Below, piece after piece: positions 1,011-38,725 of a stretch of DNA of 64,000 nt (position 1 is the stretch's first letter; every line of letters starts with the position of its first letter). The position numbers were made by a program, and so were the translations under genes. The stretch is from Candidatus Doudnabacteria bacterium RIFCSPHIGHO2_01_FULL_46_14 (GTDB lineage: Bacteria; Patescibacteriota; Doudnabacteria; UBA920; 2-01-FULL-46-14). Where the stretch lies: positions 86,983 through 150,982 of the forward strand of contig MFEK01000014.1 in assembly GCA_001779925.1 (NCBI GenBank). The letters are read 5' to 3'. Under the pieces are notes generated by a model, which saw nothing but the letters and a program-made list of their open reading frames with translations, did not search any database and was not told the DNA's origin.

Positions 1011-1011
1011 G

Positions 1012-1091
1012 CCCCGTTAGAAATTTGATCAAGAAAAATTAGACAAATAATTATGATAATACAAATTAACCTACAAGGATTTCTAACGGGG
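1012..1091. mobile_element. 80-bp MITE-like element with perfect 13-bp TIRs CCCCGTTAGAAAT / ATTTCTAACGGGG around a 54-bp AT-rich core, flanked by 4-bp direct repeat TGAG (1008-1011 and 1092-1095)
   Basis: TIRs and TSD read directly from the sequence. Removing the element restores a GAATGAGCGCT junction with pilM TGA overlapping pilN ATG. Confidence 0.65.
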
Positions 1092-2593: not shown

Positions 2594-2997
2594 CGTTTCT
2601 TTTTAGCATATTTCTGAAAGCCGAACAGCCCGCCGATGAGCCCTCCTGCGATTATTACAATGATCCAAAAGATTGAGCTTTTGGAAGTTTCGTTTGCGGC
2701 TTTATCCGTAGACGTGATGGTTCTCGCCGTCTCTTCGTTTTGGGCTGAAACATTTCCGTCTTCAGAATCTTGCTGTCCTTCCTCATTTTGATTTTGCCGG
2801 CCACCGTCCGGCTGGTTACTGCCGATTGATTCCTTATAGTTCGGCTGGACATCTTGAGGCAGAGGCTGTAGCGGATCTGTTTGTGGTAAATTTCCCGGCA
2901 CCAAACGAGCGGCGCTCGCGCTGTGATATGCGGCTAATGAAAAAATCAGGACGAATGCGAGGACAATTTTGTGGTGTTTAGGCATAGTCAATGTCAA
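2590..2997 (-). CDS. Secreted protein with Sec signal peptide, acidic Gln/Asn-rich middle and C-terminal TM anchor plus KKKR tail
   Basis: Last gene of the minus-strand minor-pilin operon, with 4-nt overlaps between genes. Confidence 0.4.
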   Translation of the reverse strand: MTLTMPKHHKIVLAFVLIFSLAAYHSASAARLVPGNLPQTDPLQPLPQDVQPNYKESIGSNQPDGGRQNQNEEGQQDSEDGNVSAQNEETARTITSTDKAANETSKSSIFWIIVIIAGGLIGGLFGFQKYAKKKR

Positions 2998-4400: not shown

Positions 4401-5052
4401 GATTAGTTTTAAGATTGCGGATGGCGGCAGAGCTTGTCACAGTGTAGGTTTGGCTGTTGGCGATTCCGCCGGTAAGATAGATTTGTAGGTTGCTTTTGAT
4501 ATACCGGACCTGAGGGATGCTGACGGGCTGCGTCAGATAGTTGTCGAATGTGCCGTCATAAGTATCGTTGTAATAATAAAAGATCGGATTTGTGCCATTC
4601 GCTAAATCTTCGATTACTACCGAGGAAACCTCGCTGCCGGTATTGTAGACGGGCGGGGTTCCCGTGGGTTTGACAATGCCCCGATAAAGCTTGGCGTTTT
4701 GGGTATAATATCGAACCCGCTCTATGTCTGCGGCCTGGTCAACATTACTGTAAAATAAAAGTTGCTGCGCCTCAGTAATGCCGAGGGAATACGCGCCGGT
4801 CGCTCCCGAGGTTGCGTTACGCAGTTCGTTAGTGATTTGAAAAGCGGTTTTGCGGGCCTGGTCAGAACCGGCCAAAAGCCGTGATTGCCGGCTAGAGTTC
4901 GTGACCATGTTGGAGATGAGGATAATCATCCCGAGCGCGATTACCGAGAAAATGAAAATCGTTATGATCATTTCGATGAGGGTAAACCCACGCAGCAAAC
5001 TACGTTGTGGCGCGGTGGTAAACCCAGCAGCAAATTTGAATGCTTTTTTCAT
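4390..5052 (-). CDS. Type IV minor pilin (prepilin-type N-terminal cleavage/methylation domain)
   Basis: RGFTLIEMIITIFIFSVIALG class III signal motif. Confidence 0.65.
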   Translation of the reverse strand: MKKAFKFAAGFTTAPQRSLLRGFTLIEMIITIFIFSVIALGMIILISNMVTNSSRQSRLLAGSDQARKTAFQITNELRNATSGATGAYSLGITEAQQLLFYSNVDQAADIERVRYYTQNAKLYRGIVKPTGTPPVYNTGSEVSSVVIEDLANGTNPIFYYYNDTYDGTFDNYLTQPVSIPQVRYIKSNLQIYLTGGIANSQTYTVTSSAAIRNLKTNLGN

Positions 5053-7605: not shown

Positions 7606-8670
7606 ATGATCAATTTTTTCTACGGCGAAGACACATTCACTCTGAGCCAGGAAATTACAAATTTAAAAGCAAGGTTTAAATTTGTGGAAACGCTGTCCAT
7701 CAACGGCGAATCAGATGTTCAGCTCAAAAATAAACTTCAGGACATCCTGCAAAGCCAAGGACTGTTTGTACAAAAAAAACTAGTAATTTTGAACAATTTT
7801 TTAACTGATGTAAAAGCCTATCCGCAGACTGAGGAGTATTTGCTTAAGGCTTTGAATAACTCGAACAGTGAGACTACGGTAGTGATTGCGCAGGAAGAAA
7901 AATTCGATCGCAGATTGAAATTTTTTAAAGCCTTGCAGAAAATAGCCCAGAATCGCGAATTCACTATCCCGGCGGGAAAAGATCTGGAAATTTGGATTAA
8001 GAGTTATTTGGGTCACCGGGGATTTGAAATCGAAAACAGTGGGCTTGTGGAATTAATTGCAAGATTGAGTGATGATGGTATTGACCCCGTTAGAAATAGC
8101 CCGTCCCAATGGGCATCTGGGCGTACTAGCACGGGCGAGATTGCTAACGGGACGAGTTTGTGGCAGGTCAGCTCGGAGTTGGAGAAATTGATGCTATTTC
8201 GATCCCCCCCCTCCCTCAGTCCCTCCCCACCAGGGGGAGGGAAGATTGCATTCGCTGACGTTCGCGATCTTGTGATGCCTAATATTTCCCAAAATGTGTT
8301 CCAGCTCACCAATCTATTCGCTGAAGGAAGAGGCCGTGAAGCTGTATCGCTTTTGGAAAAAATGATGAGCGCACCGCAGGCCTCGGATCTGAAATCTCAA
8401 ACCATTCAGATCATCGGGGGTCTGGCCTCCCAGATCCGAAGCTTGCTTTTGGTCAAGGATTTGGAAAGAGAGACACCTTCAAAGATTGCCGAGATTTTGA
8501 GTTGGAAAGAGGGACGAGTTTGGATAAACTCAAAGCTGGCCAAAAAATTCACAAAGGAAAAATTGCTTGGATTGATGCGCGACCTACGTGCGCTCGATTT
8601 ACGCTTGAAAACTTCGGAAGAACCGCCTAAACTGCTATTATCGCTATTCTTACAGAAAGCCAAAGTTTAA
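7606..8670 (+). CDS. holA: DNA polymerase III delta subunit-like protein carrying an in-frame repeat insertion
   Basis: N-terminal MINFFYGEDTF delta-subunit motif. A low-complexity insert (PVRNSPSQWASGRT..., PPSLSPSPPGGG) is encoded by the repeat elements at 8085-8245. Confidence 0.55.
   Translation: MINFFYGEDTFTLSQEITNLKARFKFVETLSINGESDVQLKNKLQDILQSQGLFVQKKLVILNNFLTDVKAYPQTEEYLLKALNNSNSETTVVIAQEEKFDRRLKFFKALQKIAQNREFTIPAGKDLEIWIKSYLGHRGFEIENSGLVELIARLSDDGIDPVRNSPSQWASGRTSTGEIANGTSLWQVSSELEKLMLFRSPPSLSPSPPGGGKIAFADVRDLVMPNISQNVFQLTNLFAEGRGREAVSLLEKMMSAPQASDLKSQTIQIIGGLASQIRSLLLVKDLERETPSKIAEILSWKEGRVWINSKLAKKFTKEKLLGLMRDLRALDLRLKTSEEPPKLLLSLFLQKAKV
8085..8151. mobile_element. Second copy of the CCCCGTTAGAAAT-TIR element family, inserted in frame inside holA
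   Basis: Shares the 20-mer TTAGAAATAGCCCGTCCCAA and further homology with the copy at 24369-24429. Imperfect TIR CCCCGTTAGAAAT / ATTGCTAACGGG. Confidence 0.5.
8201..8245. repeat. GC-rich hairpin repeat (TCCCTCCCC ACCA GGGGGAGGGA) of the CCCCTCC..GGAGGGG family, in frame in holA
   Basis: Family members at 10167-10199, 10576-10598 and 54241-54300. Confidence 0.45.
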
Positions 8671-10552: not shown

Positions 10553-10575
10553 TTTTTACCCCACCTGACCTCCCC

Positions 10576-10598
10576 TTGTAAAGGGGAGGAACAAAACA
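10576..10598. repeat. Hairpin CCTCCCCTTGTAAAGGGGAGG; right inverted-repeat boundary of the DUF559 unit
   Basis: Mirror of the left hairpin; same loop type TTAACAA / TTGTAAA. Confidence 0.55.
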
Positions 10599-13412: not shown

Positions 13413-13452
13413 CACAATAATTCGAATAAACGAGTCCCCGTAGTTCAACTTG

Positions 13453-13464
13453 CCCCGTTAGGCA
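13453..13464. repeat. Left arm CCCCGTTAGGCA of a perfect 12-bp inverted repeat; partner TGCCTAACGGGG at 13541-13552
   Basis: Shares the CCCCGTTAG core with the MITE TIRs at 1012, 8085 and 24369. Confidence 0.6.
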
Positions 13465-13466
13465 TT

Positions 13467-13538
13467 CTCCCCGTAGTTCAATGGATAGAACGGGAGCCTT
13501 CTAAGCTCTTGATGTAGGTTCGATTCCTACCGGGGGGA
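13467..13538 (+). tRNA. tRNA-Arg (anticodon TCT), inner intact copy, no CCA encoded
   Basis: Acceptor CTCCCCG/CGGGGGG, D arm GTTC..GAAC, anticodon stem GGAGC/GCTCT with loop CTTCTAA, T arm GTAGGTTCGATTCCTAC. Confidence 0.75.
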
Positions 13539-13659
13539 TGTGCCTAACGGGGTGAAGATAGAACACTGGTCTTCTAAGCCGGATATGTAGGTTTGATTCC
13601 TACCGGGGATACCAACGAGGCAGTAATTTGTAATTAGTACTTAGCCTATCCAAAATACT

Positions 13660-22015: not shown

Positions 22016-23704
22016 ATGACACTCAAAAAAATATATCTTAACCTGTTAATTGTAACGTTGGTCCTGGCCAACTTTATTTTTGCCCTGCCTGCGACGGCCG
22101 ATGAGAGTTCCCGCAAGATGGTGATTTATCGCGGGCAGGATGGAGCAAGCAGGATCGAGGTCATGGAGCTGACTGCGGAAGACGCTCGGGCGCTGGCACT
22201 CGACCCTCACGTGCTGCGCGTTGAAGATGACGCGACAGTATTTGCGACTGCACAAACTCTGCCTTGGGGCGTGGACCGCATTGATGCGGATAAAGCGCAA
22301 GATTTGAGTGTCGGCGCCGGAGTTCGAGTGGCGATACTTGATAGCGGCATAGACTTGGAGCACCCGGATCTTGCCGGCCGAATAAAAGGCGGTTACAATG
22401 CGCTCTCGCCAGGAGCTTCTTATGATGATGATTTCGGGCATGGCACACACGTTGCCGGCATTGTCGCTGGCCTGAGTAACAGCATCGGCATTGTGGGCGT
22501 GGCGCCTGCCGCGGATTTGTACGCCGTAAAAGTTTTGGATAGCACAGGCAGTGGATTTGTTTCAGATATTATTGCGGGCATTAACTGGGCCGCAGAAAAC
22601 GGCGTGCAAATAATCAATCTGAGTTTGGCAACGTCTTCTGACGTGCAGTCCTTGCACGATGCGGTATCCGCGGCAGTAAGCCGCGGGGTTCTGGTAGTGG
22701 TCGCGGCAGGAAACGATGGCGGGACCGTGAAATATCCGGCCGCGTATCCGGAAGCAATCGCCGTGGCGGCTCTGGACCAAACAGATAATCTTGCCAGCTG
22801 GTCATCGCGCGGGCCGGAAATCGATTTACTTGCTCCTGGGGCGAGTATTTATTCAACGTACGCAGGAGGGATTTATAAATTAATGCGCGGTACGTCCATG
22901 GCGGCTCCTCATGTTTCCGGAGCAGCCGCTTTGATTATGAGCAAGGGAAGCCTAAGCCCGGATGAGGTCAAAACGAAATTGTTAAATTCAGCAGAAACGC
23001 TTGTCTCAGACTATAAATTGGTTGATGCGGAAAATGCTGTGGCGCAAACCGCAAATCCACCACCTGTTGTTCCCTCAAATTCCACACCAGTTAATCAGCC
23101 TGTACAGACGGTTCCCAATCCTATTTCAGCGGCCCCGCCGCAAAGTTCTCCGACCCCTGTTGGACATGCGCCCGGTACCCTCATAAACATGAACGGTACA
23201 ATCTGGCGCATAACTGATGATGGCCAGGCAAGGCAAGGTTTTGACAGCTTGGAAAAATTTTTGTCGTATCGCTTCAAATTTACCATCGTCATGCGAGCCA
23301 ACACGGCCGACATGGCCAAACCTGATGCAGGCCTCATGTCGTGGAGCGACGGCGTACTTTTTAATGACAATGGCACTGTGTACCAGATCTCGGGCGGGCA
23401 AAAGCACGGCTTCACGTCGGCAGGGATTTTTTTGGCTCTTGGTTTTCGATTTGAAAATGTGATTTCCGGCCGGCCAAACGCGCCTACCGGTGCGCCGATT
23501 GTGGATCTTGATAAACATCTGCCGGGAACATTTGTGGTTGGCGCAGGGACCGTATATTTAGTGACGAGTTCCGGGTTGCGGGGTGTTCCAACTCCAGAGG
23601 TACTTTTCTCTTGGGGCGGAAACTGGTCGGAAATCGTGCCAGTCAAAAGCGCGGACCGGCAAGTTTTGACTGAAAATCTCACGCTTCGCATGGCCTCTTG
23701 GTAG
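22016..23704 (+). CDS. Secreted subtilisin-like serine protease (S8) with three C-terminal ~45-aa GTxY repeats
   Basis: Catalytic triad motifs ILDSGID, HGTHVAG and GTSMAAPHVSG. The C-terminal repeats are shared with the 39358 and 45244 proteins. Confidence 0.8.
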   Translation: MTLKKIYLNLLIVTLVLANFIFALPATADESSRKMVIYRGQDGASRIEVMELTAEDARALALDPHVLRVEDDATVFATAQTLPWGVDRIDADKAQDLSVGAGVRVAILDSGIDLEHPDLAGRIKGGYNALSPGASYDDDFGHGTHVAGIVAGLSNSIGIVGVAPAADLYAVKVLDSTGSGFVSDIIAGINWAAENGVQIINLSLATSSDVQSLHDAVSAAVSRGVLVVVAAGNDGGTVKYPAAYPEAIAVAALDQTDNLASWSSRGPEIDLLAPGASIYSTYAGGIYKLMRGTSMAAPHVSGAAALIMSKGSLSPDEVKTKLLNSAETLVSDYKLVDAENAVAQTANPPPVVPSNSTPVNQPVQTVPNPISAAPPQSSPTPVGHAPGTLINMNGTIWRITDDGQARQGFDSLEKFLSYRFKFTIVMRANTADMAKPDAGLMSWSDGVLFNDNGTVYQISGGQKHGFTSAGIFLALGFRFENVISGRPNAPTGAPIVDLDKHLPGTFVVGAGTVYLVTSSGLRGVPTPEVLFSWGGNWSEIVPVKSADRQVLTENLTLRMASW

Positions 23705-23736
23705 AAACTGATTTTTTGGCCTATAATTAAGCCAGA

Positions 23737-24279
23737 ATGTCGGTATTGAAACAAAAAATAAAATCAGGGTTTACTTTGATAGAGTTATTGGTGGTTATCG
23801 CCGTGATCGGTCTGCTGGCGAGCGTGATTTTGATTAGCTTGAACACCGCCCGGATCAAAGCCAGAGATAACCAGCGCAAGGCTACACTGAGGCAGCTAAA
23901 GACGGCTTTGGAACTCTATTTTGATGCTAATGGCAGTTACCCTGTAACTGTAGCCGGACCCTGGCCTTGGTGGTATTCGTCAGAGCCTGGTGACGCGGCA
24001 GCTAACGGCCCCGGCAACAACGGCGTGTGGATTTCAGGGCTGGTTCCTACCTATCTAGGATCTCTGCCGCGTGACCCACTCGGAGGAATCTCGCCTTACC
24101 CGGGTTGCGGCGGGACCTGGAAAAGATCGTACATATACACGAGTGATGCTACGAGTTATAAACTCGTCTCGCAGTGCTCTCCAGAAGGGGGGACAGTACT
24201 GTCCTCTGACGCTTTTTACGATCCGGTTCGCCCAGGTTATGCTTGGATGGTGTGTGCCGGCGTATCGTGTTCTTATTGA
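23737..24279 (+). CDS. Type IV pilin-like protein, array member 1
   Basis: Leader MSVLKQKIKSG then FTLIELLVVIAVIGLLASVILISLNTARIKARD; Cys pair near the C-terminus. Confidence 0.65.
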   Translation: MSVLKQKIKSGFTLIELLVVIAVIGLLASVILISLNTARIKARDNQRKATLRQLKTALELYFDANGSYPVTVAGPWPWWYSSEPGDAAANGPGNNGVWISGLVPTYLGSLPRDPLGGISPYPGCGGTWKRSYIYTSDATSYKLVSQCSPEGGTVLSSDAFYDPVRPGYAWMVCAGVSCSY

Positions 24280-24368
24280 AAGATATAGATTTGAGATCTA
24301 AAATCCAGTATTCTCGCTCATGGCAAGCAATGATGTAGCCTTACAAAGCAGGGGGAGGCTTTACCCTC

Positions 24369-24429
24369 TTAGAAATAGCCCGTCCCAAAGGCTCTTTGGG
24401 CGCACAAAAGCGCGGGCGCAATTTCAAAT
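24369..24429. mobile_element. 61-bp member of the CCCCGTTAGAAAT element family inserted at the pilin GFTL-coding site, flanked by 12-bp direct repeat GGCTTTACCCTC (24357-24368 and 24431-24442)
   Basis: Shares the 20-mer TTAGAAATAGCCCGTCCCAA with the holA copy. Direct repeats read from the sequence. Confidence 0.6.
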
Positions 24430-24904
24430 GGGCTTTACCCTCATCGAACTCCTCGTGGTCATCTCCGTCATCGGGCTTTTGGCCAGCGTGATTATGGTGG
24501 CTTTGAATTCAGCAAGAGTAAAAGCACGGGACATTAAAAGAATGTCCGATATAGGACAATTGCAGACGGCTTTGGAACTTTATTACGATAAATACAGTAT
24601 TTATCCGAACATCTCTCAATCCGCTGATTCTACCAATTGCGAAGATCGCACGCCGGCCCTAGTTTTTTATTTGGGTGAATTCATGTCATCTATTCCCCAC
24701 GACCCACAAGGTCCGCCCGCTGTTCCAAATGTTGATGCCGGTCCCGATCGCCATTGTTATTTTTATAATGTAAAAAAGAGCGGCCAGGGTTATGTAATTA
24801 TGGCTTACCAGGTCGAGCAGGTAACGACGGCTGCAAAAGGTGAAGGAGCGGCGTGTTATCCGGATGTGGTAAACGTTTATTGTAAAGGAATCAATTACCA
24901 ATAA
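24428..24904 (+). CDS. Type IV pilin-like protein, array member 2 (alternative upstream start 24320 reads through the inserted element)
   Basis: MGFTLIELLVVISVIGLLASVIMVALNSARVKARD; the ATG lies at the element/target junction. Confidence 0.55.
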   Translation: MGFTLIELLVVISVIGLLASVIMVALNSARVKARDIKRMSDIGQLQTALELYYDKYSIYPNISQSADSTNCEDRTPALVFYLGEFMSSIPHDPQGPPAVPNVDAGPDRHCYFYNVKKSGQGYVIMAYQVEQVTTAAKGEGAACYPDVVNVYCKGINYQ

Positions 24905-24905
24905 T

Positions 24906-25481
24906 ATGGATAATAAAAAGAATTTACAGGCCAATTCAGGCTTTATCCCCACACCACAACGCCGTTTGGTGTGGGGCTTTACCCTTATCGAACTTCTTGT
25001 GGTCATATCCGTGATCGGGTTGTTGGCGAGCGTGGTTATAATTTCCCTGAATTCATCAAGGATCAAAACCAGAGACACGGTGAGAAAACAAACTTTAAAG
25101 CAGCTGCAAAAGGCTTTGGAACTGTATTTTGACGCCAACGGCAATTATCCAATAGTGTCGCCTTACTATTCTTCAGAACCAGGAGACGTATGGCCTAACG
25201 GATCCGGCGGCAATGGCGACTGGATTCCCGGACTATCGCCGAATTATGTTTCCAAGCTGCCTCGCGACCCTCTTGGCGGCGCTTCCACGAATCCGGTTTG
25301 CACCCCAGGAGGTTATAAACGAGCTTATTATTACCGAAGCCTGGATGGCAAAGAGTACAAGCTTTATTCTCACTGTGGTCCCGAAGGTTCAGTAAATTCC
25401 GATGATCCTTTTTATGATCCGTCCCGGCCAACCTGGGCCTGGATGGTCTGCTCCGGCGAACCGGCGTGTTCAACGTGGTAA
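24906..25481 (+). CDS. Type IV pilin-like protein, array member 3, with a hairpin insertion in its leader
   Basis: Leader ...ANSGFIPTPQRRLVWG then FTLIELLVVISVIGLL. The insert CCCCACACCACAACGCCGTTTGGTGTGGGG (24947-24976) lies between GGCTTTATC and GGCTTTACCC. Confidence 0.6.
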   Translation: MDNKKNLQANSGFIPTPQRRLVWGFTLIELLVVISVIGLLASVVIISLNSSRIKTRDTVRKQTLKQLQKALELYFDANGNYPIVSPYYSSEPGDVWPNGSGGNGDWIPGLSPNYVSKLPRDPLGGASTNPVCTPGGYKRAYYYRSLDGKEYKLYSHCGPEGSVNSDDPFYDPSRPTWAWMVCSGEPACSTW

Positions 25482-25516
25482 AATAAAGTAAACATTTGAC
25501 AATTAACATTTAACAA

Positions 25517-26044
25517 TTGACAAAGAGCGCACAAATCAAAAGTCAAGGCTTTACCCTCATTGAGCTCCTCGTGGTCATTTCCCTCATCGGCTTGCTCGCG
25601 AGCGTGATTTTGGTCAGTTTAAATTCGTCGCGCGTTAAGGCCAGGGACACGGTGAGGAAGCAAACCCTTAGGCAGCTGCAAAAGGGTTTAGAATTTTACT
25701 ACAATCAAATTGGAAGTTATCCGGTAACTCCAGTTAACTGCTGCTCTTCGGAACCTGGCGACCCTTGGCATCCCCAGGATGACTGGATTCCCGGTTTGGA
25801 GCCTAGCTATATTTCTAAATTGCCTAGGGATCCTTTGGGTGGAATTTCGCCAATTTGCGCAGGACCCAGATATAGAAGTTATTTGTACCAAAGCGACAGC
25901 GACGGTAAAAACTATAAACTTTATGCTTATTGCAGTCCGGAAGGCGCTATGACTGACGACCCGTCCGATCCCTTTTACAGCCCAGGGGCTTGGTGGTATA
26001 CCTGGAGGGTCTGCGGCGGCACATCGGACTGCAATTCATGGTGA
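25517..26044 (+). CDS. Type IV pilin-like protein, array member 4
   Basis: TTG start; MTKSAQIKSQG then FTLIELLVVISLIGLLASVILVSLNSSRVKARD. Confidence 0.6.
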   Translation: MTKSAQIKSQGFTLIELLVVISLIGLLASVILVSLNSSRVKARDTVRKQTLRQLQKGLEFYYNQIGSYPVTPVNCCSSEPGDPWHPQDDWIPGLEPSYISKLPRDPLGGISPICAGPRYRSYLYQSDSDGKNYKLYAYCSPEGAMTDDPSDPFYSPGAWWYTWRVCGGTSDCNSW

Positions 26045-26055
26045 TAAATAGACTT

Positions 26056-26592
26056 ATGGAAAAAAACCAAAAAGCCTTTACCCTCATCGAACTCCTCGTC
26101 GTCATCGCCGTCATCGGTTTGCTGGCCAGCGTGGTTTTGGTGGCGATGAATAATTCACGGGCCAAGGCAAGGGATGCCAAACGGATCGCTGAAAAAAAAC
26201 AGGCGGTTACGGCGTTTAATTTATATTACAATGATAACGGCAAGTGGCCGCTAACCGTTTCTTCCTTTACACCCTCATCGAATTGTTTGGCGTCAAGTTC
26301 GGAAACTTGCTGGCTTGGCTCCAGAACAGGATTAGATTCACTTGTTAGCGCCCTTTCGCCGTATTTATCTTCTCTTCCGACAAACAATGTGCCAAGCGGT
26401 GTCCGGGCGTATAATCGGTTATTATATACAGACAATGCAAATGCCGGCGATATTGTCGCAGGCAGTCCCGCCGGAGCGTGGCTCATTTGGGTTCAGGAAA
26501 CCGGCATGACACCGGACAAGTGCGCAAGCAATATTATTTCAAACTATAGCGACGGCTATTTGTATTGCTATGAATTTTTGGGTCCGCCTTAG
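26056..26592 (+). CDS. Type IV pilin-like protein, array member 5 (Ala at the -1 cleavage position)
   Basis: MEKNQKA then FTLIELLVVIAVIGLLASVVLVAMNNSRAKARD. The upstream ORF extension to 25990 overlaps the previous gene and is unlikely. Confidence 0.55.
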   Translation: MEKNQKAFTLIELLVVIAVIGLLASVVLVAMNNSRAKARDAKRIAEKKQAVTAFNLYYNDNGKWPLTVSSFTPSSNCLASSSETCWLGSRTGLDSLVSALSPYLSSLPTNNVPSGVRAYNRLLYTDNANAGDIVAGSPAGAWLIWVQETGMTPDKCASNIISNYSDGYLYCYEFLGPP

Positions 26593-26623
26593 AAATATAT
26601 TTTGTATATTATAAAATAATTTT

Positions 26624-27262
26624 ATGAAGCGAAAAGGCTTTACCCTCATCAAGCTCCCCAGCTCTTCGTCCGCCTCTGGCGGACTACGGCGGGCCAATGC
26701 TTTCACATTGATAGAACTCCTCGTGGTCATTTCCGTCATCGGCCTGCTCGCCAGTATAGTTTTGGTGAGTTTGAACAGCGCGCGGGCCAAGGCAAGGGAT
26801 GCCAAGCGCTTAACCGACTTAGCCCAAATTAAGAAAGCTCTGGAATTGTATTATGACGATAACGGCAGTTATCCTAACACTAATTACAATGTCGGACCCG
26901 GGCAGTGGCGCACCCAATGCGCTTCCTCGGATTCATGGGTTACGCCAAACCTGCCGGCTGACCAGGTGATTAAAGATATTTATAATGGCAAAGGACTGGC
27001 TCCAACTTATATTAGCCCCTTCCCTTCCGACCCCCTCTTGAACGCAGCTTCGAGTCAAAATTGTTATAATTATACTTCCAATGGGACTGACTACAAGTTA
27101 ATAGATACAGCTTTAACAGATATGACCCTTGCCCAAATCAACCAGTATCCAAGCTATAAAGACCCTGCCAGAAACGACACAACCAATACAGCCCCGTGCA
27201 CCTCATTTGCTGATTATTCACTGACTTTGGCCATTTGGTCTCCTGGGGCGCAGTGCTGGTAA
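26624..27262 (+). CDS. Type IV pilin-like protein, array member 6, with a hairpin-repeat insertion in its leader
   Basis: MKRKGFTLIKLPSSSSASGGLRRANA then FTLIELLVVISVIGLL. The insert (26664-26693) has the GTCCGCCTCTGGCGGAC hairpin between GCTTTACCCTCATC and GCTTTCACATTGAT. Confidence 0.6.
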   Translation: MKRKGFTLIKLPSSSSASGGLRRANAFTLIELLVVISVIGLLASIVLVSLNSARAKARDAKRLTDLAQIKKALELYYDDNGSYPNTNYNVGPGQWRTQCASSDSWVTPNLPADQVIKDIYNGKGLAPTYISPFPSDPLLNAASSQNCYNYTSNGTDYKLIDTALTDMTLAQINQYPSYKDPARNDTTNTAPCTSFADYSLTLAIWSPGAQCW

Positions 27263-27278
27263 TTTTTTATTAAATTTT

Positions 27279-27755
27279 ATGAAGCGAAAAGGCTTTACCC
27301 TAGTTGAACTCCTCGTGGTCATCGCCGTGATTGGGCTTTTGGCCAGCGTGATTTTGGTGAGTTTGAACAGCGCGCGTGTGAAAGCCAGAGATGCTAGACG
27401 AAAAGCGGACATGTATCAATTGGGACTGGCAATACAGCTTTACTATGACGCTAACGGCACATTCCCGCCCAGCGTTTTAGATACAATTGACAACACAACA
27501 ACAAAAACCGGAGATTGGCCGCCTGCCTTTAAGACGGAGCTTGCCCCTTTTTTGTCCAAGCTTCCCCTGGACCCACTTTCAAATAGCGCTTTCCCTTTTT
27601 ACGGAGCAGAGAGGATGAATCGGGCTCCGGATGCGAATTGTAATGGGCAATTTGTCATCTGGATGTATTTTGAAGGAACGACTGATCCTGATTATGGTAA
27701 ATATATTTGCGGTTGGGCGCCGCTCCATTATATTAAGTTATTAGGCAAGTATTAA
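27279..27755 (+). CDS. Type IV pilin-like protein, array member 7
   Basis: MKRKG then FTLVELLVVIAVIGLLASVILVSLNSARVKARD. Confidence 0.65.
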   Translation: MKRKGFTLVELLVVIAVIGLLASVILVSLNSARVKARDARRKADMYQLGLAIQLYYDANGTFPPSVLDTIDNTTTKTGDWPPAFKTELAPFLSKLPLDPLSNSAFPFYGAERMNRAPDANCNGQFVIWMYFEGTTDPDYGKYICGWAPLHYIKLLGKY

Positions 27756-27767
27756 CTGCCCGAATAA

Positions 27768-28280
27768 ATGAAACAAAAAGGCTTAACCTTTACCCTTCGA
27801 CTACGCTCAGGGTTCACCCTCATCGAACTCCTCGTGGTTATTTCCGTCATCGGCCTGCTGGCGAGCGTGATTCTTATTTCTTTGAACAGCGCGCGGGCCA
27901 AGGCAAGGGATGCCAAACGCATCGCTGATATTCGGCAAATTCAAAAAGCTTTGGAACTCTACTATGATCAAAATAATGAATATCCGCGTTATGACGGCGG
28001 GGGAATAGTGACTTGCGGTGGTGCTTGGGCAACTACGGATGACGCGCCCACATTTATGCCCTGCTGGAATGATTTGCAAACAAAATTATCCCCGTATATA
28101 AATAGATTGCCGGTTGAAATTCTTTGGACATCCAGCGGTTATCATTATAAAACTCAAAACAGCGGACAAGGTTATTATTTGTTAATGTATCCTGAAAATA
28201 ACTCGATGTATCGGACTGATTCGCCTTGTTATGATAGTCAAGGTTCTCTTTGGTGGTGTACAGGGAATAATTGGGAATAA
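27768..28280 (+). CDS. Type IV pilin-like protein, array member 8, with a short leader insertion
   Basis: MKQKGLTFTLRLRSG then FTLIELLVVISVIGLL; duplicated GGCTTAACCTTTACCCTT / GGGTTCACCCTC. Confidence 0.6.
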   Translation: MKQKGLTFTLRLRSGFTLIELLVVISVIGLLASVILISLNSARAKARDAKRIADIRQIQKALELYYDQNNEYPRYDGGGIVTCGGAWATTDDAPTFMPCWNDLQTKLSPYINRLPVEILWTSSGYHYKTQNSGQGYYLLMYPENNSMYRTDSPCYDSQGSLWWCTGNNWE

Positions 28281-28301
28281 GGTAAGAAAAAATTAATAGA
28301 A

Positions 28302-28856
28302 ATGAGACCTCCACAAATACAAATCAAATATTCTTCTAAAGGCTTTACCCTCATCGAACTCCTGGTCGTTATTTCCGTTATCGGTCTGCTTGCTAGTGTG
28401 GTTATGATTGCTCTGAATTCCGCCCGTTTAAAGGCCAGGAACACCAAACGGCTTGCTGACATCAGGCAGTTGACCACAGCATTCAATCTTGGCCTTGATA
28501 GCAGCAGTAGCGGTTCCCTGCCTGCAAGCGGAGGTAATAATTGGGTATGCGTCAGCGCCAGTTGCTATGGGTCATGGGCGACAAGCTACCCCGCTAACGC
28601 TGGTGTTGATGCTTTTTTGGCGCCATATATTGCCAGCAAACCAACAGCTCCGCTTGGCAGTTATGCGGGAGCGGGCGGATATTTGTATATTTTTGGCTAC
28701 AACGGGGGGGCTGTGTCCCCGTATGACGGCAGTATTCTCGCAGGCACGTATTTGGACGCCCTCATGGAACCGCCTCTCACCCCAGGTATTTGCGGTTCAG
28801 GCAGAATATGGGACGCCACCTCAAACTACATTGAGTGCATGTTTAAGCTTGATTAA
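28302..28856 (+). CDS. Type IV pilin-like protein, array member 9
   Basis: MRPPQIQIKYSSKG then FTLIELLVVISVIGLLASVVMIALNSARLKARN. Confidence 0.65.
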   Translation: MRPPQIQIKYSSKGFTLIELLVVISVIGLLASVVMIALNSARLKARNTKRLADIRQLTTAFNLGLDSSSSGSLPASGGNNWVCVSASCYGSWATSYPANAGVDAFLAPYIASKPTAPLGSYAGAGGYLYIFGYNGGAVSPYDGSILAGTYLDALMEPPLTPGICGSGRIWDATSNYIECMFKLD

Positions 28857-29378
28857 ATGAAACAAAAAGGGTTTACCCTCATTGAACTCCTCGTGGTCAT
28901 TGCCGTCATCGGCTTGCTCGCCAGCGTGGTTTTGATGGCTTTGAATGCGACTCGAGTCAAAGCGAGGAATAGCAGGAGAGCTGCGGATATTCAACAGCTG
29001 GTTAAGGCTTTTAACTTAGCTGCCGATGCCGACGGCGGCACATTTCCCACTACTGGAATTAATCAATATTTTTGTATAAGCAGTACTTGCAGCGGCATAT
29101 GGCCTACCAACCCCAATGTTATAGTTGATAGCGCTTTGGCTCCCTATATAAAAAAGCCGACCGATCCCGTAGATTCTACCAGAGCCGGCGGGGGCTACAT
29201 TTATAACAGCAACTGGCCTTCCGGCAATGTTAGCCCCTATGACGGCACTGCCTGGGTAGGGGGTGTTTATTTGGCTTACTTATTGGAACCCGTTTCCATT
29301 ATCTCGGGCGTATGCGCACCGGGAAAAATTTGGATGGTTGACCAGACTTACATTGAGTGTTTGTTAAAGCTTGATTGA
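28857..29378 (+). CDS. Type IV pilin-like protein, array member 10
   Basis: MKQKG then FTLIELLVVIAVIGLLASVVLMALNATRVKARN. C-terminal region similar to member 9 (...YIECMFKLD versus YIECLLKLD). Confidence 0.65.
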   Translation: MKQKGFTLIELLVVIAVIGLLASVVLMALNATRVKARNSRRAADIQQLVKAFNLAADADGGTFPTTGINQYFCISSTCSGIWPTNPNVIVDSALAPYIKKPTDPVDSTRAGGGYIYNSNWPSGNVSPYDGTAWVGGVYLAYLLEPVSIISGVCAPGKIWMVDQTYIECLLKLD

Positions 29379-29868
29379 AAAAACCATGAAATCTAAATAT
29401 AAATTATCAACCGGTTTTACTTTAATCGAACTCCTCGTGGTCATCGCTGTTATCGGGCTTTTGGCGAGCGTGATTATGGTGAGTTTAAATAGTGCCAAGG
29501 CCAAGGCGCGGGATACTAAACGTAAAGCGGATTTAAAACAGGTCGCAACTGCCTTAAATCTTTATTATGACGAAAATAACTTTTTACCGGGAAATGCGTC
29601 CGGTTGGTGCTCTCTTTTTATCCACGGGGCCACTGGCTTTACGGGCAACGCCATGCCAGCTCCGCTTCTGACTAAGTACATGTCAAGCATTCCTTACGAC
29701 CCTATATGGGCTGGGGACGGGAACCCAAACAGCTACACGGCAGACTATCTGTATTATAATGTTGACAACACGAATGGTAAGTTTACTCTTTGCGCTAACT
29801 TTGAACAGGACCCGGGCAGTCTAACTGTCACGTGCGGCACTAATTATAAGTATTGCATAAGCCAATAA
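29371..29868 (+). CDS. Type IV pilin-like protein, array member 11
   Basis: MIEKTMKSKYKLSTG then FTLIELLVVIAVIGLLASVIMVSLNSAKAKARD. Confidence 0.65.
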   Translation: MIEKTMKSKYKLSTGFTLIELLVVIAVIGLLASVIMVSLNSAKAKARDTKRKADLKQVATALNLYYDENNFLPGNASGWCSLFIHGATGFTGNAMPAPLLTKYMSSIPYDPIWAGDGNPNSYTADYLYYNVDNTNGKFTLCANFEQDPGSLTVTCGTNYKYCISQ

Positions 29869-29906
29869 TTTTAAAAGGGCAAAAAATTTTAAAGTATAAT
29901 AAATTG

Positions 29907-30425
29907 ATGAACAAAATCAGACTTCAAACTGGCTTTACCTCCATCCCTCGGCCTTGTTCGTTCTTCGACAGGCTCAGAACGGCCTTGGGCTTGCCGAAAC
30001 GGTCGGGATTTACATTAATCGAACTCCTCGTGGTCATCGCTGTTATCGGGCTTTTGGCGAGCGTGATTATGGTGAGTTTAAATAGTGCCAGGGCCAAGGC
30101 GAGGGACGCGAGAAGAAAAGCGGATACAAAACAGTTGGGCACTGCTTTGGAACTATTTTACGATGCCAATAATTATTACCCTTACACGGGTTTGCCGGAT
30201 GGAAACAGCGCCGCAATGAGCTATTTAACGACTTATCTAACTCCGGCTTACCTGGCAAAAATCCCTGATGATCCTACCTGCCCGACGGTTTGCTATTCTT
30301 ACGTCCAGCTCGGAAGCGGCAAAGATTACGCGCTTTACGTGCCTCTGCAAGACAACCAAAATCCTTGCGTCATCAGGACTCCGGGCGCAACAGCTGTTTG
30401 GGCAGGTGTTCCTGGCTGTAACTAA
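29907..30425 (+). CDS. Type IV pilin-like protein, array member 12, with a ~62-bp insertion in its leader
   Basis: MNKIRLQTGFTSIPRPCSFFDRLRTALGLPKRSG then FTLIELLVVIAVIGLL. The insert (29953-30014) lies between GGCTTTACCTCC and GGGATTTACATTAATC. Confidence 0.55.
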   Translation: MNKIRLQTGFTSIPRPCSFFDRLRTALGLPKRSGFTLIELLVVIAVIGLLASVIMVSLNSARAKARDARRKADTKQLGTALELFYDANNYYPYTGLPDGNSAAMSYLTTYLTPAYLAKIPDDPTCPTVCYSYVQLGSGKDYALYVPLQDNQNPCVIRTPGATAVWAGVPGCN

Positions 30426-30472
30426 TCAAGTTTGCTCTTCTGCGCGGCAGAAAATAATGCTATAGTTCAGAC

Positions 30473-30823
30473 ATGATTATGGAAAGCGAAATTGGCAAGG
30501 TTCCCCAGGGGGAAACCGCAAGCCCGATAGAAAAGCTACAGCGCGAATACGCTATAAAATGGCTGGCGGCAATGATAGCCGCTTCAGAAGAACGAAGCTT
30601 ATCGAAGAATGACGAAGGCAGACATGAGGCCAAACAACGCTGGTCCGGGCTGCAAACTCAAGTTAAGGACGCTACTGATAAAATCAGGTCGTTACACGGT
30701 GCGGAAGCGGAAAAAATTTTTACCGAGGCCATGACAAAATATAATCTGGAAGGCAATCCGGATCCGCAAATTGCTGCAGAGGCCGAGAAACTTTATAACG
30801 AATGGGGAAAAACTAATGGGTGA
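30473..30823 (+). CDS. Hypothetical helical protein (116 aa)
   Basis: ORF; coupled to the next ORF by ATGGGTGA. Confidence 0.3.
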   Translation: MIMESEIGKVPQGETASPIEKLQREYAIKWLAAMIAASEERSLSKNDEGRHEAKQRWSGLQTQVKDATDKIRSLHGAEAEKIFTEAMTKYNLEGNPDPQIAAEAEKLYNEWGKTNG

Positions 30824-37750: not shown

Positions 37751-38725
37751 TTATTTTCTAAAACGCCCGTGAAACTTGGCGTGGATTTCTTTTAATCTTT
37801 TATTGGTTAAATGCGTATAGATTTGCGTAGTCGTGATGGATGCGTGTCCCAGGATTTCCTGGACTGACCTGAGGTCTGCGCCGGCCTGCAGGAGATCCGT
37901 GGCCATTGTATGCCTGAGTGTATGCGGGGAAATTTTTATAGTAATCCCTGCCAGCAGAGCGTATTTTTTCATAAGGCGCTGGATCGTGCGAGCGGTGAGC
38001 GGTGAAACATCCGAGATGTCAATTTTATTATTTGAATGTCTTACGAAAAGGGCAGGGGAGTTATCCGATCTTTTGCTGAGATAATTTTTGAGCGCGCTGC
38101 GGGCAGCTGGCGACAAAAATACAACACGGATTTTATCGCCTTTCCCTTTGACTGAGAACTCGTCTTTTTTCAGGTTGACCTGTGCGCGTTTCAGGCCCGC
38201 GCATTCAGCAACGCGAAGGCCGGTGGAAAATAAAATCTCGAGAATCGCGCGGTCGCGCAAGCGCCGAAGTTCGTCTTTTTCCTGGTTGGTTGCGCGGAAG
38301 AGTTTTTCCAAATCCTCGGATTCAAGAAAGCTTACCTGCCTTGACGGCGTTTTTGGAAGTTCCAGTTTTTCGGCGGCAAGGCTTTTGACGTCGCGTCGGG
38401 CTAAATATTTGAGGAAAGAGCGAAGAGCAATAATGTGGTAGGTTTGCGTGGCGAGTTTCAGTTCTCCGCCTTCGTCCGCCTGAGGCGGACTTCGGCGGAC
38501 TTGTCGGCGATTCAATGCGAGGCGAAAGCTTCTTACCAAATCCAAATCAACGCCAGCAGGGGATGATACTCTTCGAGATTCCGCAAATTCGCAAAATCGC
38601 CGTAAATATAAATCATAATTGCGGATGGTCAGGCGAGAGCGGTTTTTTTCCACCTCTAGGTGCTCTAGGAATTGCTGTTTGTATTTTTTTAGTTCCGTTT
38701 GTTTCATATTGTGCGACGTACACAA
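37751..38725 (-). CDS. xerC: Tyrosine recombinase XerC/XerD-like carrying an in-frame hairpin-repeat insertion
   Basis: C-terminal HTLRHTMATDLLQAGADLRSVQEILGHASITTTQIYTHL with catalytic Tyr. Extra RRQVRRSPPQADEGGE segment encoded by the repeat at 38467-38500. Confidence 0.7.
   Translation of the reverse strand: MCTSHNMKQTELKKYKQQFLEHLEVEKNRSRLTIRNYDLYLRRFCEFAESRRVSSPAGVDLDLVRSFRLALNRRQVRRSPPQADEGGELKLATQTYHIIALRSFLKYLARRDVKSLAAEKLELPKTPSRQVSFLESEDLEKLFRATNQEKDELRRLRDRAILEILFSTGLRVAECAGLKRAQVNLKKDEFSVKGKGDKIRVVFLSPAARSALKNYLSKRSDNSPALFVRHSNNKIDISDVSPLTARTIQRLMKKYALLAGITIKISPHTLRHTMATDLLQAGADLRSVQEILGHASITTTQIYTHLTNKRLKEIHAKFHGRFRK
38467..38500. repeat. Hairpin repeat CCGCCTTCGTCCGCCTGAGGCGGACTTCGGCGGAC, homologous to 26664-26693
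   Basis: CTTCGTCCGCCTNNGGCGGACTNCGGCGG shared with the pilin-leader copy. Confidence 0.55.

What the first reader, a model, noticed from the sequence alone, without database searches (positions are those of the whole stretch)
24357..30040. The pilin GFTLIE-coding sequence is an insertion hotspot for different hairpin elements
Five of the twelve pilin genes have distinct palindromic inserts at the same place, GGCTTTACCCTC (codons G-F-T-L). Each sits between imperfect duplications of that target.
- 24369-24429: CCCCGTTAGAAAT-family MITE between two perfect 12-bp copies.
- 24947-24976: CCCCACACCA..TGGTGTGGGG hairpin.
- 26664-26693: GTCCGCCTCTGGCGGAC hairpin.
- 27790-27810: short insert.
- 29953-30014: 62-bp insert.
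The inserts lengthen the prepilin leader peptides, yet the ORFs stay open. Either one target sequence attracts several element families, or insertion-mediated leader variation is tolerated or selected.
Basis: seen in the sequence. Interest (0 to 1): 0.8.

Follow-up and report, generated by a model that had tools for sequence, protein, structure and literature searches.

The report
Mini transposons targeting pilin leader codons
Small selfish hairpin DNA elements have repeatedly inserted at one exact spot in type IV pilin genes, the codons where the signal peptide is cut off. There they are simply translated as extra leader peptide, and the same thing is seen in over a hundred other environmental bacterial sequences.

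Summary

**In the window.** The source is Candidatus Doudnabacteria. Five of the 12 tandem pilin genes carry an insert between an upstream G-F-T-like copy and the true G|FTLIE site.

**What the inserts are.** They are MITE-like units of the form 5'-CCC(C)…(G)GGG-3', flanked by a 4-nt direct repeat. In pilins the layout is GGN TTTA|CCCC…GGGG|TTTA CCN. The apparent 9-12-nt "target duplication" is mostly end mimicry: the element supplies the CC of the upstream ACC codon and the GGG of the downstream Gly(-1) codon.

**Families recognised.**
- CCCCCACACC… (read as "GFTPTP…LVWG|FTLIE"): g3 and the minor pilin.
- CCCCGTTAGAAAT… (read as "GFTPLEI…FLTG|FTLIE"): g2, plus three non-pilin copies in the window.
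- A TTCGAC..GCTCAG motif group: g8 and g12.
- g6 is unresolved.

**Outside the window.** Public genomes and metagenomes gave more than 130 further pilin genes with such inserts, in CPR and Planctomycetes, with about 35 different 10-nt left ends. Of 108 distinct elements, 101 are in frame and stop-free. Non-pilin copies show other 4-bp duplications.

**Limits.** No transposase was found and no empty/filled allele pair was seen.

**Verdict.** This is a new variant of a known kind: in-frame palindromic MITEs, like Rickettsia RPEs, with an undescribed preference for the prepilin cleavage-site codons.

The parts
23737..30425 (+). Tandem array of 12 type IV pilin-like genes (N-terminus GFTLIELLVVI). 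Seven have canonical short leaders: g1 23737, g4 25517, g5 about 26057, g7 27279, g9 28302, g10 28857, g11 about 29386.
   Evidence: PF07963 N_methyl hits
24364..24433 (+). g2 insert. A 70-nt family-2 element (CCCTCTTAGAAAT…ATTTCAAATGGGC) between TTTA 24360-24363 and TTTA 24434-24437. The TTTA-to-TTTA spacing is 74 nt, so it is out of frame with the upstream GFT copy.
24946..24977 (+). g3 insert. A 32-nt family-1 hairpin (T-CCCCACACCA-CAACGCCGTT-TGGTGTGGGG-C) between TTTA 24942-24945 and TTTA 24978-24981. It reads GFIPTPQRRLVW|GFTLIE.
   Evidence: (z = -3.35); near-identical insert in L009
26648..26698 (+). g6 insert of unresolved family. It contains the hairpin GTCCGCC-TCT-GGCGGAC (26668-26684). 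The upstream copy is GGCTTTACCCTC at 26636-26647. The functional copy GCTTTCACATTG at 26699-26710 differs mainly at synonymous positions. The 5' 23 nt are identical to the start of g7.
   Evidence: (z = -1.96)
27793..27812 (+). g8 insert. A 20-nt unit CCCTTCGACTACGCTCAGGG between TTTA 27789-27792 and TTCA 27813-27816. It is preceded by an extra GGCTTAACC (27780-27788), possibly a remnant of an earlier event. The TTCGACTACGCTCAGG motif recurs in fetched loci.
29940..30005 (+). g12 insert of 66 nt between GGCTTTACC (29931-29939) and GGATTTACATTA (30006-30017). It has degenerate CCC…GGGA ends and an internal TTCGACAGGCTCAGAACGG motif related to the g8 insert. It does not fold significantly.
   Evidence: (z = -0.12)
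4987..5018 (-). Sixth case, outside the reported range. A 32-nt family-1 relative in the minor pilin gene 4390-5052, between TTTA 5022-5019 and TTTA 4986-4983. It reads GFTTAPQRSLLR|GFTLIEM. The stem differs from g3 partly by compensatory changes.
   Evidence: z = -2.42
1012..1091 (.). Family-2 element (CCCCGTTAGAAATT…GATTTCTAACGGGG) between pilM and pilN. It is flanked by a perfect 4-nt direct repeat TGAG (1008-1011 and 1092-1095).
8085..8151 (+). Family-2 element inside the DNA polymerase III delta (holA-like) ORF 7606-8670, read in a different frame from the pilin copies (…DPVRNSPSQ…). Its first 20 nt are identical to the g2 element.
13453..13552 (+). Family-2-type element (CCCCGTTAGGCA…TGCCTAACGGGG) carrying a whole tRNA-Arg(TCT). 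It is inserted in the D-loop of a second tRNA-Arg(TCT)-like gene. In-silico excision restores that gene.

Best explanation
The inserts are miniature, non-coding, palindromic transposable elements (MITE-like).

**Anatomy.** Each unit starts with CCC(C), ends with (G)GGG, has terminal inverted repeats of about 10-20 nt, and is flanked by a 4-nt direct repeat taken from the target.

**Target in pilin genes.** The duplicated tetranucleotide is the TTTA inside GGN-TTT-ACC (Gly-1, Phe+1, Thr+2). The filled site reads GGN TTTA|CCCC…GGGG|TTTA CCN.
- The left end adds CC, so the upstream remnant still reads G-F-T.
- The right end adds GGG, which recreates the Gly(-1) codon in front of the intact FTLIE.

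The true prepilin-peptidase site is therefore rebuilt. The original short leader plus the element are translated as a longer leader, which is removed on maturation, so the mature pilin is unchanged.

**Consequences.**
- Selection on the host gene keeps almost only in-frame, stop-free copies.
- Each insertion recreates two target-like junctions, which explains tandem arrays that share single TTTA spacers.

**What is shown and what is inferred.**
- Shown: anatomy, multicopy status, patchy distribution, 4-nt duplications at other sites, frame bias, enrichment at the GFT site.
- Inferred: transposition by an unidentified transposase (possibly IS1380/piggyBac-like), real target preference rather than survival alone, and cleavage of the long leaders.
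For: 1. **Same anatomy in unrelated hosts.**
   - A genome scan for the family-1 3' junction gave 28 loci. About 25 read GGNTTTACCCCCACACC…GGTGTGGGGGTTTAC, in CPR lineages and in Planctomycetes/Sedimentisphaerales.
2. **Insert DNA is conserved while the host gene is not.** The family-1 insert of L009 differs from the corresponding 27 nt of g3 at 1-2 positions (read by eye). The two pilins are only 60% identical.
3. **Patchy distribution.** Only 3 of 120 closest homologues have a double GFT leader.
4. **Multicopy within genomes.** The same interior occurs in two pilin genes of one genome: L012/L018, L022/L039, L017 (two copies), L025 (two copies), L126 (two copies).
5. **The long repeat is mimicry.** The Gly codon on the 5' side varies (GGG/GGC/GGA/GGT/GCC) while the Gly codon on the 3' side is GGG in 24 of 28 loci. 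The Thr codon on the 5' side is nearly always ACC while on the 3' side it is ACN.
6. **True 4-nt target duplications at other sites.** In 947 kb of loci there are 98 paired family-2 copies. 72 are flanked by TTTA/TTTA. 8 of about 25 others have identical 4-mers (CAAG twice, TCCA, CTGG, CAAA, CTCA, TGAA, TGAG) against about 0.1 expected.
7. **Excision in silico restores genes.**
   - Removing 13453-13552 restores a tRNA-Arg call.
   - Removing the pilin inserts leaves canonical leaders: MDNKKNLQANSG, MKRKG, MKQKG, MNKIRLQTG, MKKAFKFAAG (compared).
8. **Translation constraint.** 101 of 108 elements are in frame and stop-free, against about 15% expected (one third times the 0.45 stop-free fraction of shuffles).
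9. **No protein-level function.** The same family is read in another frame in holA and also lies in intergenic DNA.
10. **Site enrichment.** 4 of 12 GFT TTTA sites against 0 of 98 other TTTA/TAAA sites in the cluster.
11. **Tandem arrays with single TTTA spacers.** Seen in L010, L018, L059 and L076.
Against: - No autonomous copy or transposase with these ends was found in 947 kb of fetched loci or in the window.
- No empty/filled polymorphism between close strains was seen. All 12 contigs of this strain are the same.
- The external scans required a pilin context, so the share of pilin sites (72 of 98) is inflated by ascertainment.
- The ends are very diverse beyond CCCC (about 35 different 10-nt left ends). 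That is unusual if one transposase must bind them. It could point to structure-based recognition or to another mechanism.
- g6, g8 and g12 fit the scheme only loosely: g6 has no TTTA/CCCC…GGGG frame, and g8 and g12 do not fold significantly.
- Cleavage of 20-140-residue leaders by the prepilin peptidase is untested.
Confidence: 0.75

Rival explanations
1. The double GFT motif and the sequence between are an ancient, functional leader module of these pilins (a propeptide or second processing site), inherited vertically.
For: The inserts are almost always in frame and stop-free. The end-encoded peptides recur (FTPTP…LVWG, FTPLEI…FLTG) in many organisms.
Against: - Only 3 of 120 closest homologues have it.
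- Conservation is at the DNA level, as reverse-complementary arms with variable interiors.
- The same DNA occurs in other frames and in intergenic DNA.
- The upstream copy lacks Glu+5 and the hydrophobic helix.
- Some copies are out of frame or contain stops, and use an internal start instead (L012, L022, L036, L039).
Confidence: 0.04
2. The hairpins are cis-regulatory RNA (or DNA) structures in the 5' coding region that tune translation or stability of individual pilin mRNAs. They could be original to the genes or exapted from mobile elements.
For: - Stable stems lie about 30 nt downstream of the start codon (g3 -20.5 kcal/mol, z = -3.35).
- Stems stay complementary although their sequence differs between lineages.
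- 6 of 14 pilin-type genes in one genome carry them.
Against: - No Rfam family matches.
- Copies occur in unrelated genes, in a tRNA gene and in spacers, with 4-nt duplications. A regulatory motif does not explain that.
- g8 and g12 do not fold significantly.
- Exaptation of some copies is not excluded.
Confidence: 0.1
3. Programmed translational bypassing, as in T4 gene 60 or mitochondrial byp elements. The ribosome would take off at the upstream GFT codons and land on the matching downstream GFT codons, skipping the hairpin.
For: Matched codons flank a hairpin-forming insert of 30-75 nt. This is the geometry of known bypass elements (own knowledge of T4 gene 60 and of Magnusiomyces byps).
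Against: - Bypassing needs no reading-frame continuity, yet 101 of 108 inserts are in frame and stop-free.
- No stop codon follows the putative take-off codon.
- The upstream copy of g2 has no in-frame start.
Confidence: 0.02
4. The structures arise without a mobile element, by local duplication or template switching. Candidates are gene conversion between paralogous pilin 5' ends, or error-prone repair at the quasi-palindrome GGGTTTACCC.
For: - GGGTTTACCC is itself a near-palindrome.
- The 5' 23 nt of g6 equal the start of g7, and its two GFTLI copies differ at synonymous sites, which suggests recombination between paralogues.
- Array copy number differs by one 51-nt unit between L076 and L157.
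Against: - Insert sequences are unrelated to their flanks.
- The same ends (CCCCGTTAGA…, CCCCCACACC…) recur in different phyla and at non-pilin sites with different 4-nt duplications.
- Recombination may well explain g6 and array expansion, but it does not explain the origin of the families.
Confidence: 0.08

Closest known systems
Rickettsia palindromic elements (RPEs), and intragenic MITEs generally (ERIC, Correia, BOX)
   Same: Short palindromic non-coding repeats, present in many copies, inserted in frame in protein-coding genes and translated without destroying the product (review PMC10969869).
   Different: - RPEs are about 100-150 bp, restricted to Rickettsia, and scattered over unrelated genes without a common target.
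- These elements can be as short as 20-32 nt and occur in CPR and Planctomycetes.
- They concentrate on one codon triplet of one gene superfamily, and they rebuild a processing site with their own ends.
piggyBac / IS1380-type DDE transposons
   Same: A 4-bp target duplication at a T/A-rich tetranucleotide (TTAA for piggyBac, TTTA here), and ends that begin CCC and end GGG. IS1380 transposases are the prokaryotic relatives of piggyBac transposases (PMC10140906). That IS1380 elements make 4-5 bp duplications with CC ends is from my own memory of ISfinder.
   Different: - No transposase was found.
- Duplications at non-pilin sites are not TTTA or TTAA (CAAG, TGAG, CTGG and others).
- The inverted repeats are far more diverse than in one IS family.
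- Membership is a lead only.
REP elements with RAYT (Y1/HUH) transposases
   Same: Short imperfect palindromes in many copies. A RAYT-like Y1_Tnp gene is present in some of the fetched contigs (L116, L146).
   Different: - REPs are extragenic, have a GTAG head and make no target duplication.
- The RAYT-like gene seen (L116 4040-4741) is flanked by a different hairpin, CTACGAGACCCGGCCTCGTAG, not by family-1 or family-2 ends.
Mobile elements that home to conserved multicopy sequences (Tn7 at attTn7, IS1111 at attC/REP, integrative elements in tRNA genes)
   Same: Use of a conserved, repeated, harmless target. The interrupted function is restored by sequence the element carries, as integrative elements restore a tRNA 3' end.
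   Different: Those systems have known recombinases and long recognition sites. Here only 4 nt are duplicated and the specificity determinant is unknown. The target is protein-coding and the element is translated.
Translational bypass elements (T4 gene 60, mitochondrial byps)
   Same: GC-rich hairpin inserts of 27-55 nt between matched codons inside ORFs. The byps are mobile.
   Different: Bypass elements are skipped by the ribosome and need not be in frame. These are in frame and stop-free in 94% of cases, which implies ordinary translation.

Membership tests
MITE (miniature inverted-repeat transposable element) | Terminal inverted repeats | tested here: met
   Arms of 10-19 nt in most elements: CCCCGTTAGAAAT/ATTTCTAACGGGG and CCCCCACACCAA/TTGGTGTGGGGG. 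They are weak in g8 and g12.
MITE (miniature inverted-repeat transposable element) | Target-site duplication of fixed length | tested here: met
   A 4-nt direct repeat. It is TTTA at pilins (72 of 98 family-2 copies). 8 of about 25 other copies have other identical 4-mers, against about 0.1 expected.
MITE (miniature inverted-repeat transposable element) | Small, non-coding, multicopy within a genome | tested here: met
   Length 20-135 nt. The window holds 4 family-2 and 2 family-1 copies. Several copies per locus occur in L017, L025, L053, L076 and L126.
MITE (miniature inverted-repeat transposable element) | A cognate autonomous IS with the same ends | tested here: inconclusive
   No ORF-bearing element bounded by matching CCC…GGG ends was found in 947 kb plus the window. 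Recurrent ORF clusters are pilus machinery plus one RAYT-like gene with other hairpins. Whole genomes were not searched.
MITE (miniature inverted-repeat transposable element) | Evidence of mobility (empty versus filled orthologous sites) | tested here: inconclusive
   - All 12 contigs of this strain are identical.
- Indirect support: patchy distribution, restoration of a tRNA gene on in-silico excision, and a 51-nt array-size difference between L076 and L157.
Rickettsia palindromic elements | In-frame insertion in ORFs with the product retained | tested here: met
   101 of 108 in frame and stop-free. The holA-like and pilin ORFs stay open.
Rickettsia palindromic elements | Sequence membership in the RPE families of Rickettsia | not tested
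   No RPE sequences were compared. The host lineage (CPR) and the element sizes differ, so only the mode of life is shared.
IS1380 / piggyBac-derived element | 4-5 bp duplication and CC(C)…(G)GG ends | tested here: met
   The family features are taken from PMC10140906 and from memory of ISfinder.
IS1380 / piggyBac-derived element | A DDE/DDD transposase of that family that binds these ends | not testable with these tools
   No transposase candidate was found. A whole-genome search and biochemistry are needed.
REP / RAYT system | Extragenic palindromes with a conserved 5' tetranucleotide, no target duplication, and a RAYT gene flanked by the same REPs | tested here: not met
   The elements are mostly intragenic and have 4-nt duplications. 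The RAYT-like gene in L116 is flanked by unrelated hairpins.
Translational bypass (byp / gene 60) element | The insert is skipped by the ribosome, so frame and stops inside it are unconstrained | tested here: not met
   A strong frame and stop constraint: 101 of 108 against about 15% expected.
Known structured RNA family (Rfam) | Match to a curated covariance model | tested here: not met
   No hit at E <= 1 in 23600-30600.

The most novel reading that the evidence does not exclude
A superfamily of tiny palindromic transposons (CCCC…GGGG ends, 4-bp duplication) uses the near-universal prepilin cleavage-site codons GGN-TTT-ACC as a safe harbour across bacterial phyla. Their own ends rebuild the Gly(-1)/Phe(+1) site, so the host pilin is still made. 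The empty site GGG-TTTA-CCC looks like two abutted element ends, which could be what attracts them and why they stack into arrays. If the enzyme is piggyBac/IS1380-like and excises precisely, insertion and excision could act as a reversible switch, or as a leader-length rheostat, on individual pilin paralogues.
Probability: 0.45. Interest if true: 0.8.

Novelty: new variant of a known kind. Interest (0 to 1): 0.68.

Why it matters
**For mobile-element biology.** This would be a MITE group with a coding-sequence target shared by hundreds of paralogues per community. It would also be the first case I know of in which an element restores a signal-peptidase site with its own termini. Some units are 20-32 nt, near the lower size limit for a transposable unit.

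**For type IV pilus biology.** The data predict natural prepilins with leaders of 20 to over 100 residues, including tandem arrays. That is a ready-made test of how long a leader the prepilin peptidase tolerates. The hairpins may also modulate which of many pilin paralogues is expressed in CPR episymbionts, whose pili mediate host contact.

**For annotation.** Insert-bearing pilins lose or weaken their PF07963 hit and invite wrong start-codon calls. The peptide signatures GFTPTP…LVWGFTLIE and GFTPLEI…FLTGFTLIE can flag them.

Tried and rejected
- **Strain polymorphism.** I looked up the g3 protein's contigs. All 12 are the same strain and essentially identical, so no empty site was available.
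- **Short consensus leader as a protein query**. It returned only short pilin fragments without inserts and was uninformative.
- **First genome scan with the exact g3 loop** (CCACACCACAACGNNGTTTGGTG). It found nothing because the loop is lineage-specific.
Rejected, because the Gly and Thr third-codon positions differ systematically between the two copies.
- **Autonomous elements.** Long-range CCC…GGG inverted pairs 600-3600 nt apart turned out to be separate MITEs in neighbouring pilin genes.
- **RAYT as the mobilising enzyme.** A Y1_Tnp gene occurs in a few loci but is flanked by other hairpins.
- **Rfam**: no match.
- **Literature searches** by keyword and by end sequence found no description of pilin-targeted MITEs.
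- **IS200/IS605-type insertion 3' of TTAC, and integron attC-like recombination.** Both were considered as mechanisms. They are not supported, because 4-nt duplications of varied sequence occur at non-pilin sites.
- **Two-gap pattern syntax.** It had to be worked around.

Full report
**Source and setting.** The window comes from a Candidatus Doudnabacteria genome (Rifle aquifer), going by the name a source gives to the g3 protein. It holds a type IV pilus locus. pilM/N/O-like genes lie at 84-2270 and minor pilins at 2994-6845 on the minus strand. Twelve tandem pilin-like genes lie at 23737-30425 on the plus strand. All twelve encode a mature N-terminus FTLIELLVVI, or FTLVELLVVI in g7.

**Checking the observation.**
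- The five inserts are at the stated positions.
- GGCTTTACCCTC with up to 2 mismatches occurs 20 times in the window against 4.85 expected. Four of those 20 matches are extra copies 36-75 nt upstream of a genuine pilin N-terminus.
- Distances between the upstream copy and the functional copy are 74 (g2), 36 (g3), 63 (g6), 30 (g8) and 75 nt (g12).
- g3, g6, g8 and g12 are therefore read through in frame. g2 is open only in a different upstream frame, with an ATG directly before the real GFTLIE.
- Folding relative to shuffles:

| Insert | z-score |
|---|---|
| g3 | -3.35 |
| g6 | -1.96 |
| g2 | -1.48 |
| g8 | -0.20 |
| g12 | -0.12 |

- I found a sixth case outside the reported range. The minor pilin at 4390-5052 (-) reads GFTTAPQRSLLR|GFTLIEM. 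It has the same 36-nt spacing as g3 and a homologous insert whose stem differs partly by compensatory changes.
- The locus is identical in 12 contigs from independent assemblies, so it is not an assembly artefact.

**Are the double GFT leaders ancestral?** No.
- Among the 120 closest homologues of the g3 pilin, only three have a second GFT in the leader. They are the query itself, P0007 (AFTPTPQRRLVRG|FTLIE) and P0053.
- P0007 is only 60% identical to g3 as a protein. Its insert DNA (L009) differs from the corresponding 27 nt of g3 at only 1-2 positions (read by eye).
- A search of 1.8 billion representative proteins with the g3 leader found P0230 (GFIPTPNNLVWG|FTLVE). It also found P0232, which has two tandem inserts of about 100 nt.

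**Family 1.**
- Scanning one genome per species for the 3' junction GGTGTGGGGNTTTACNCTNNTNGA gave 28 loci.
- About 25 of them have the full structure GGNTTTACCCCCACACC…GGTGTGGGGGTTTAC, read as "GFTPTP…LVWG|FTLIE".
- Hosts include Parcubacteria, Paceibacterota, Saccharibacteria, Portnoybacteria and Zambryskibacteria, and also Planctomycetes and Sedimentisphaerales.
- Interiors range from 24 to about 135 nt and differ between lineages. Each element keeps a long terminal stem.
- The same interior occurs in two pilin genes of one genome (L012/L018, L022/L039, L017 twice).

**What is actually duplicated.**
- On the 5' side the Gly/Ala codon is host-like and variable, while the Thr codon is almost always ACC.
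- On the 3' side the Gly codon is GGG in 24 of 28 loci, while the Thr codon is ACN.
- The CC after the first TTTA and the GGG before the second therefore belong to the element. Only TTTA is common to both flanks.
- The real anatomy is GGN TTTA|(C/T)CCCC…GGGG(G/A)|TTTA CCN. In the window, g3 is TTTA|T-CCCC…GGGG-C|TTTA.

**Family 2, and proof of a 4-nt duplication.**
- The first 20 nt of the g2 insert are identical to 8090-8109, inside a DNA polymerase III delta (holA-like) ORF.
- The same ends, CCCCGTTAGAAAT/ATTTCTAACGGGG, bracket 74-nt inserts at exactly the GFT position in two pilin genes of a Portnoybacteria genome (L025).
- By first 10 nt, 47 of the 108 start CCCCGTTAGA, with a further 10 or so differing by one base. 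13 start CCCCCACACC, with about 10 starting CCCCCGCACC or CCCCGCACC. About 30 other starts are mostly singletons.
- In the 947 kb now held there are 98 paired family-2 copies. 72 have TTTA on both sides. Among about 25 others, 8 have other identical tetranucleotides (CAAG twice, TCCA, CTGG, CAAA, CTCA, TGAA, TGAG), where about 0.1 would be expected by chance.
- One of these is in the window. Element 1012-1091 lies between pilM and pilN and is flanked by TGAG/TGAG.
- Another window copy (13453-13552) carries a complete tRNA-Arg(TCT) and interrupts a second tRNA-Arg-like gene. Deleting it in silico restores a tRNA call from the flanks.
- Together these are the hallmarks of insertion by transposition with a 4-bp staggered cut.

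**The remaining window inserts.**
- g8 is TTTA|CCCTTCGACTACGCTCAGGG|TTCA. Its core motif, TTCGACTACGCTCAGG (up to 3 mismatches allowed), has 17 matches in the fetched loci.
- g12 has degenerate CCC…GGGA ends and a related internal motif.
- g6 has a GC hairpin but no clean CCCC…GGGG/TTTA frame. Its first 23 nt equal the start of g7, and its two GFTLI copies differ at synonymous sites. Recombination between paralogues probably contributed. I leave g6 unresolved.

**How the host copes.**
- Removing each insert plus one flank copy leaves canonical leaders: MDNKKNLQANSG, MKRKG, MKQKG, MNKIRLQTG and MKKAFKFAAG. These are like the 4-14-residue leaders of insert-free homologues. The upstream GFT is thus the original cleavage-site remnant, and the original start codon is still in use.
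- Of 108 distinct elements, 101 keep the frame and are stop-free. About 15% would do so by chance, taking one third for the frame times the 0.45 stop-free fraction of shuffles.
- The few out-of-frame copies often supply an internal start (L012, L022, L036, L039).
- The same families are read in another frame in holA and lie in spacers. The constraint is therefore on the host ORF, not on an insert-encoded peptide.
- I infer that the lengthened leader (median 30 residues, maximum 142) is removed at the rebuilt G|F site. This is not shown.

**Is it a true hotspot?**
- Within the pilin cluster there are 110 TTTA/TAAA sites. 4 of the 12 GFT sites carry a CCC…GGG-type insert, and none of the other 98 do (p = 8.6e-5). 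Many of those other sites lie in leaders and spacers, where insertion should also be harmless.
- Tolerance alone therefore does not explain the pattern.
- One possible reason, which is an inference: the empty site GG(G)-TTTA-CC(C) resembles the junction of two abutted element ends, GGGG-TTTA-CCCC. Each insertion recreates two such junctions. This fits the tandem arrays with single TTTA spacers in L010, L018, L059 and L076.
- Non-pilin targets do not share GG…CC flanks, so this idea is weak.

**Mechanism and enzyme.**
- No autonomous copy was found.
- ORF families that recur among the loci are pilus machinery, plus a RAYT-like Y1 transposase. That gene is flanked by different hairpins.
- A 4-bp duplication with CCC…GGG ends recalls piggyBac and its prokaryotic relatives, the IS1380 family (PMC10140906; IS1380 details from memory). 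This is a lead, not a test.
- The great diversity of stems beyond CCCC remains unexplained under a simple one-transposase model.

**Comparison with known systems and novelty.**
- The way of life matches intragenic MITEs, above all the Rickettsia palindromic elements, which insert in frame in ORFs (PMC10969869).
- New here are the concentration on the prepilin cleavage-site codons, the rebuilding of that site by the element's termini, the very small size of some units, and the spread across CPR and Planctomycetes.
- Keyword and sequence searches of the literature library found no description, and Rfam has no match.
- I rate it a new variant of a known kind.

**Verdict.** Confidence in the MITE explanation is about 0.75. 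Interest is about 0.68.

Noticed in passing
window 13436-13613: A 100-nt family-2-type element (13453-13552) contains a complete tRNA-Arg(TCT) (13466-13539). It sits in the D-loop of a second, diverged tRNA-Arg(TCT)-like gene with an encoded CCA. Deleting the element in silico restores a tRNA-Arg call. It looks like a MITE carrying a replacement tRNA for the gene it disrupts.
   Followed up: partly
window 7606-8670 (inserts at 8085-8151 and 8220-8242): The DNA polymerase III delta (holA-like) ORF carries two in-frame hairpin inserts between its N- and C-terminal Pfam domains. One is a family-2 element and the other is a TCCCTCCCC-ACCAG-GGGGAGGGA hairpin.
   Followed up: partly
window 10167-10187, 10569-10589, 54273-54293: A further hairpin type, CCCCTCC…GGAGGGG, occurs at the 3' end of a DUF559 ORF, in the adjacent spacer, and inside the queuine tRNA-ribosyltransferase gene. 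The genome seems generally permissive to short GC hairpins in coding DNA.
   Followed up: no
window 1008-1095: An 80-nt family-2 element with a perfect TGAG duplication fills the whole pilM-pilN spacer. The GTG start of the pilN-like ORF (1091) overlaps the last base of the element.
   Followed up: partly
L076 841-1050 and 1895-2100; L157: Two neighbouring pilin-like genes each carry four tandem 51-nt units (a 47-nt element plus TTTA), which predicts leaders of about 70 residues. The 99%-identical contig L157 is 51 nt longer between anchors, so array copy number may vary between samples (or this is an assembly effect).
   Followed up: partly
L116 3940-4740 (also L055, L077, L079, L146): A RAYT-like Y1_Tnp (PF01797) gene is flanked by CTACGAGACCCGGCCTCGTAG hairpins. 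This is a separate REP-like system in the same CPR contigs and is not associated with family-1 or family-2 ends.
   Followed up: partly
window 27796-27811 and about 17 places in fetched loci (for example L144, L123, L059, L087): The motif TTCGACTACGCTCAGG (read as FDYAQ / LRLRSG) recurs widely in CPR-type contigs, often bounded by CCC…GGG. It is probably a third short repeat family.
   Followed up: partly
window 26624-26646 versus 27279-27301: g6 and g7 share an identical 23-nt start (ATGAAGCGAAAAGGCTTTACCCT). g11 and g12 share a 129-nt N-terminal block at 90.7% identity. Both point to gene conversion among pilin paralogues.
   Followed up: no
L001/L002 gene tables (window 24320-24904, 24906-25481, 26624-27262, 27768-28280): Insert-bearing pilins have no precomputed PF07963 (N_methyl) hit, or only a weak one, while most of their insert-free neighbours have a normal one. 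Such inserts can hide pilins from domain-based annotation.
   Followed up: no
window 37751-38725 (-): An XerC/D-like tyrosine recombinase (Phage_integrase plus SAM-like N-terminal domain). It is probably the housekeeping dimer-resolution enzyme, and no link to the elements was found.
   Followed up: no
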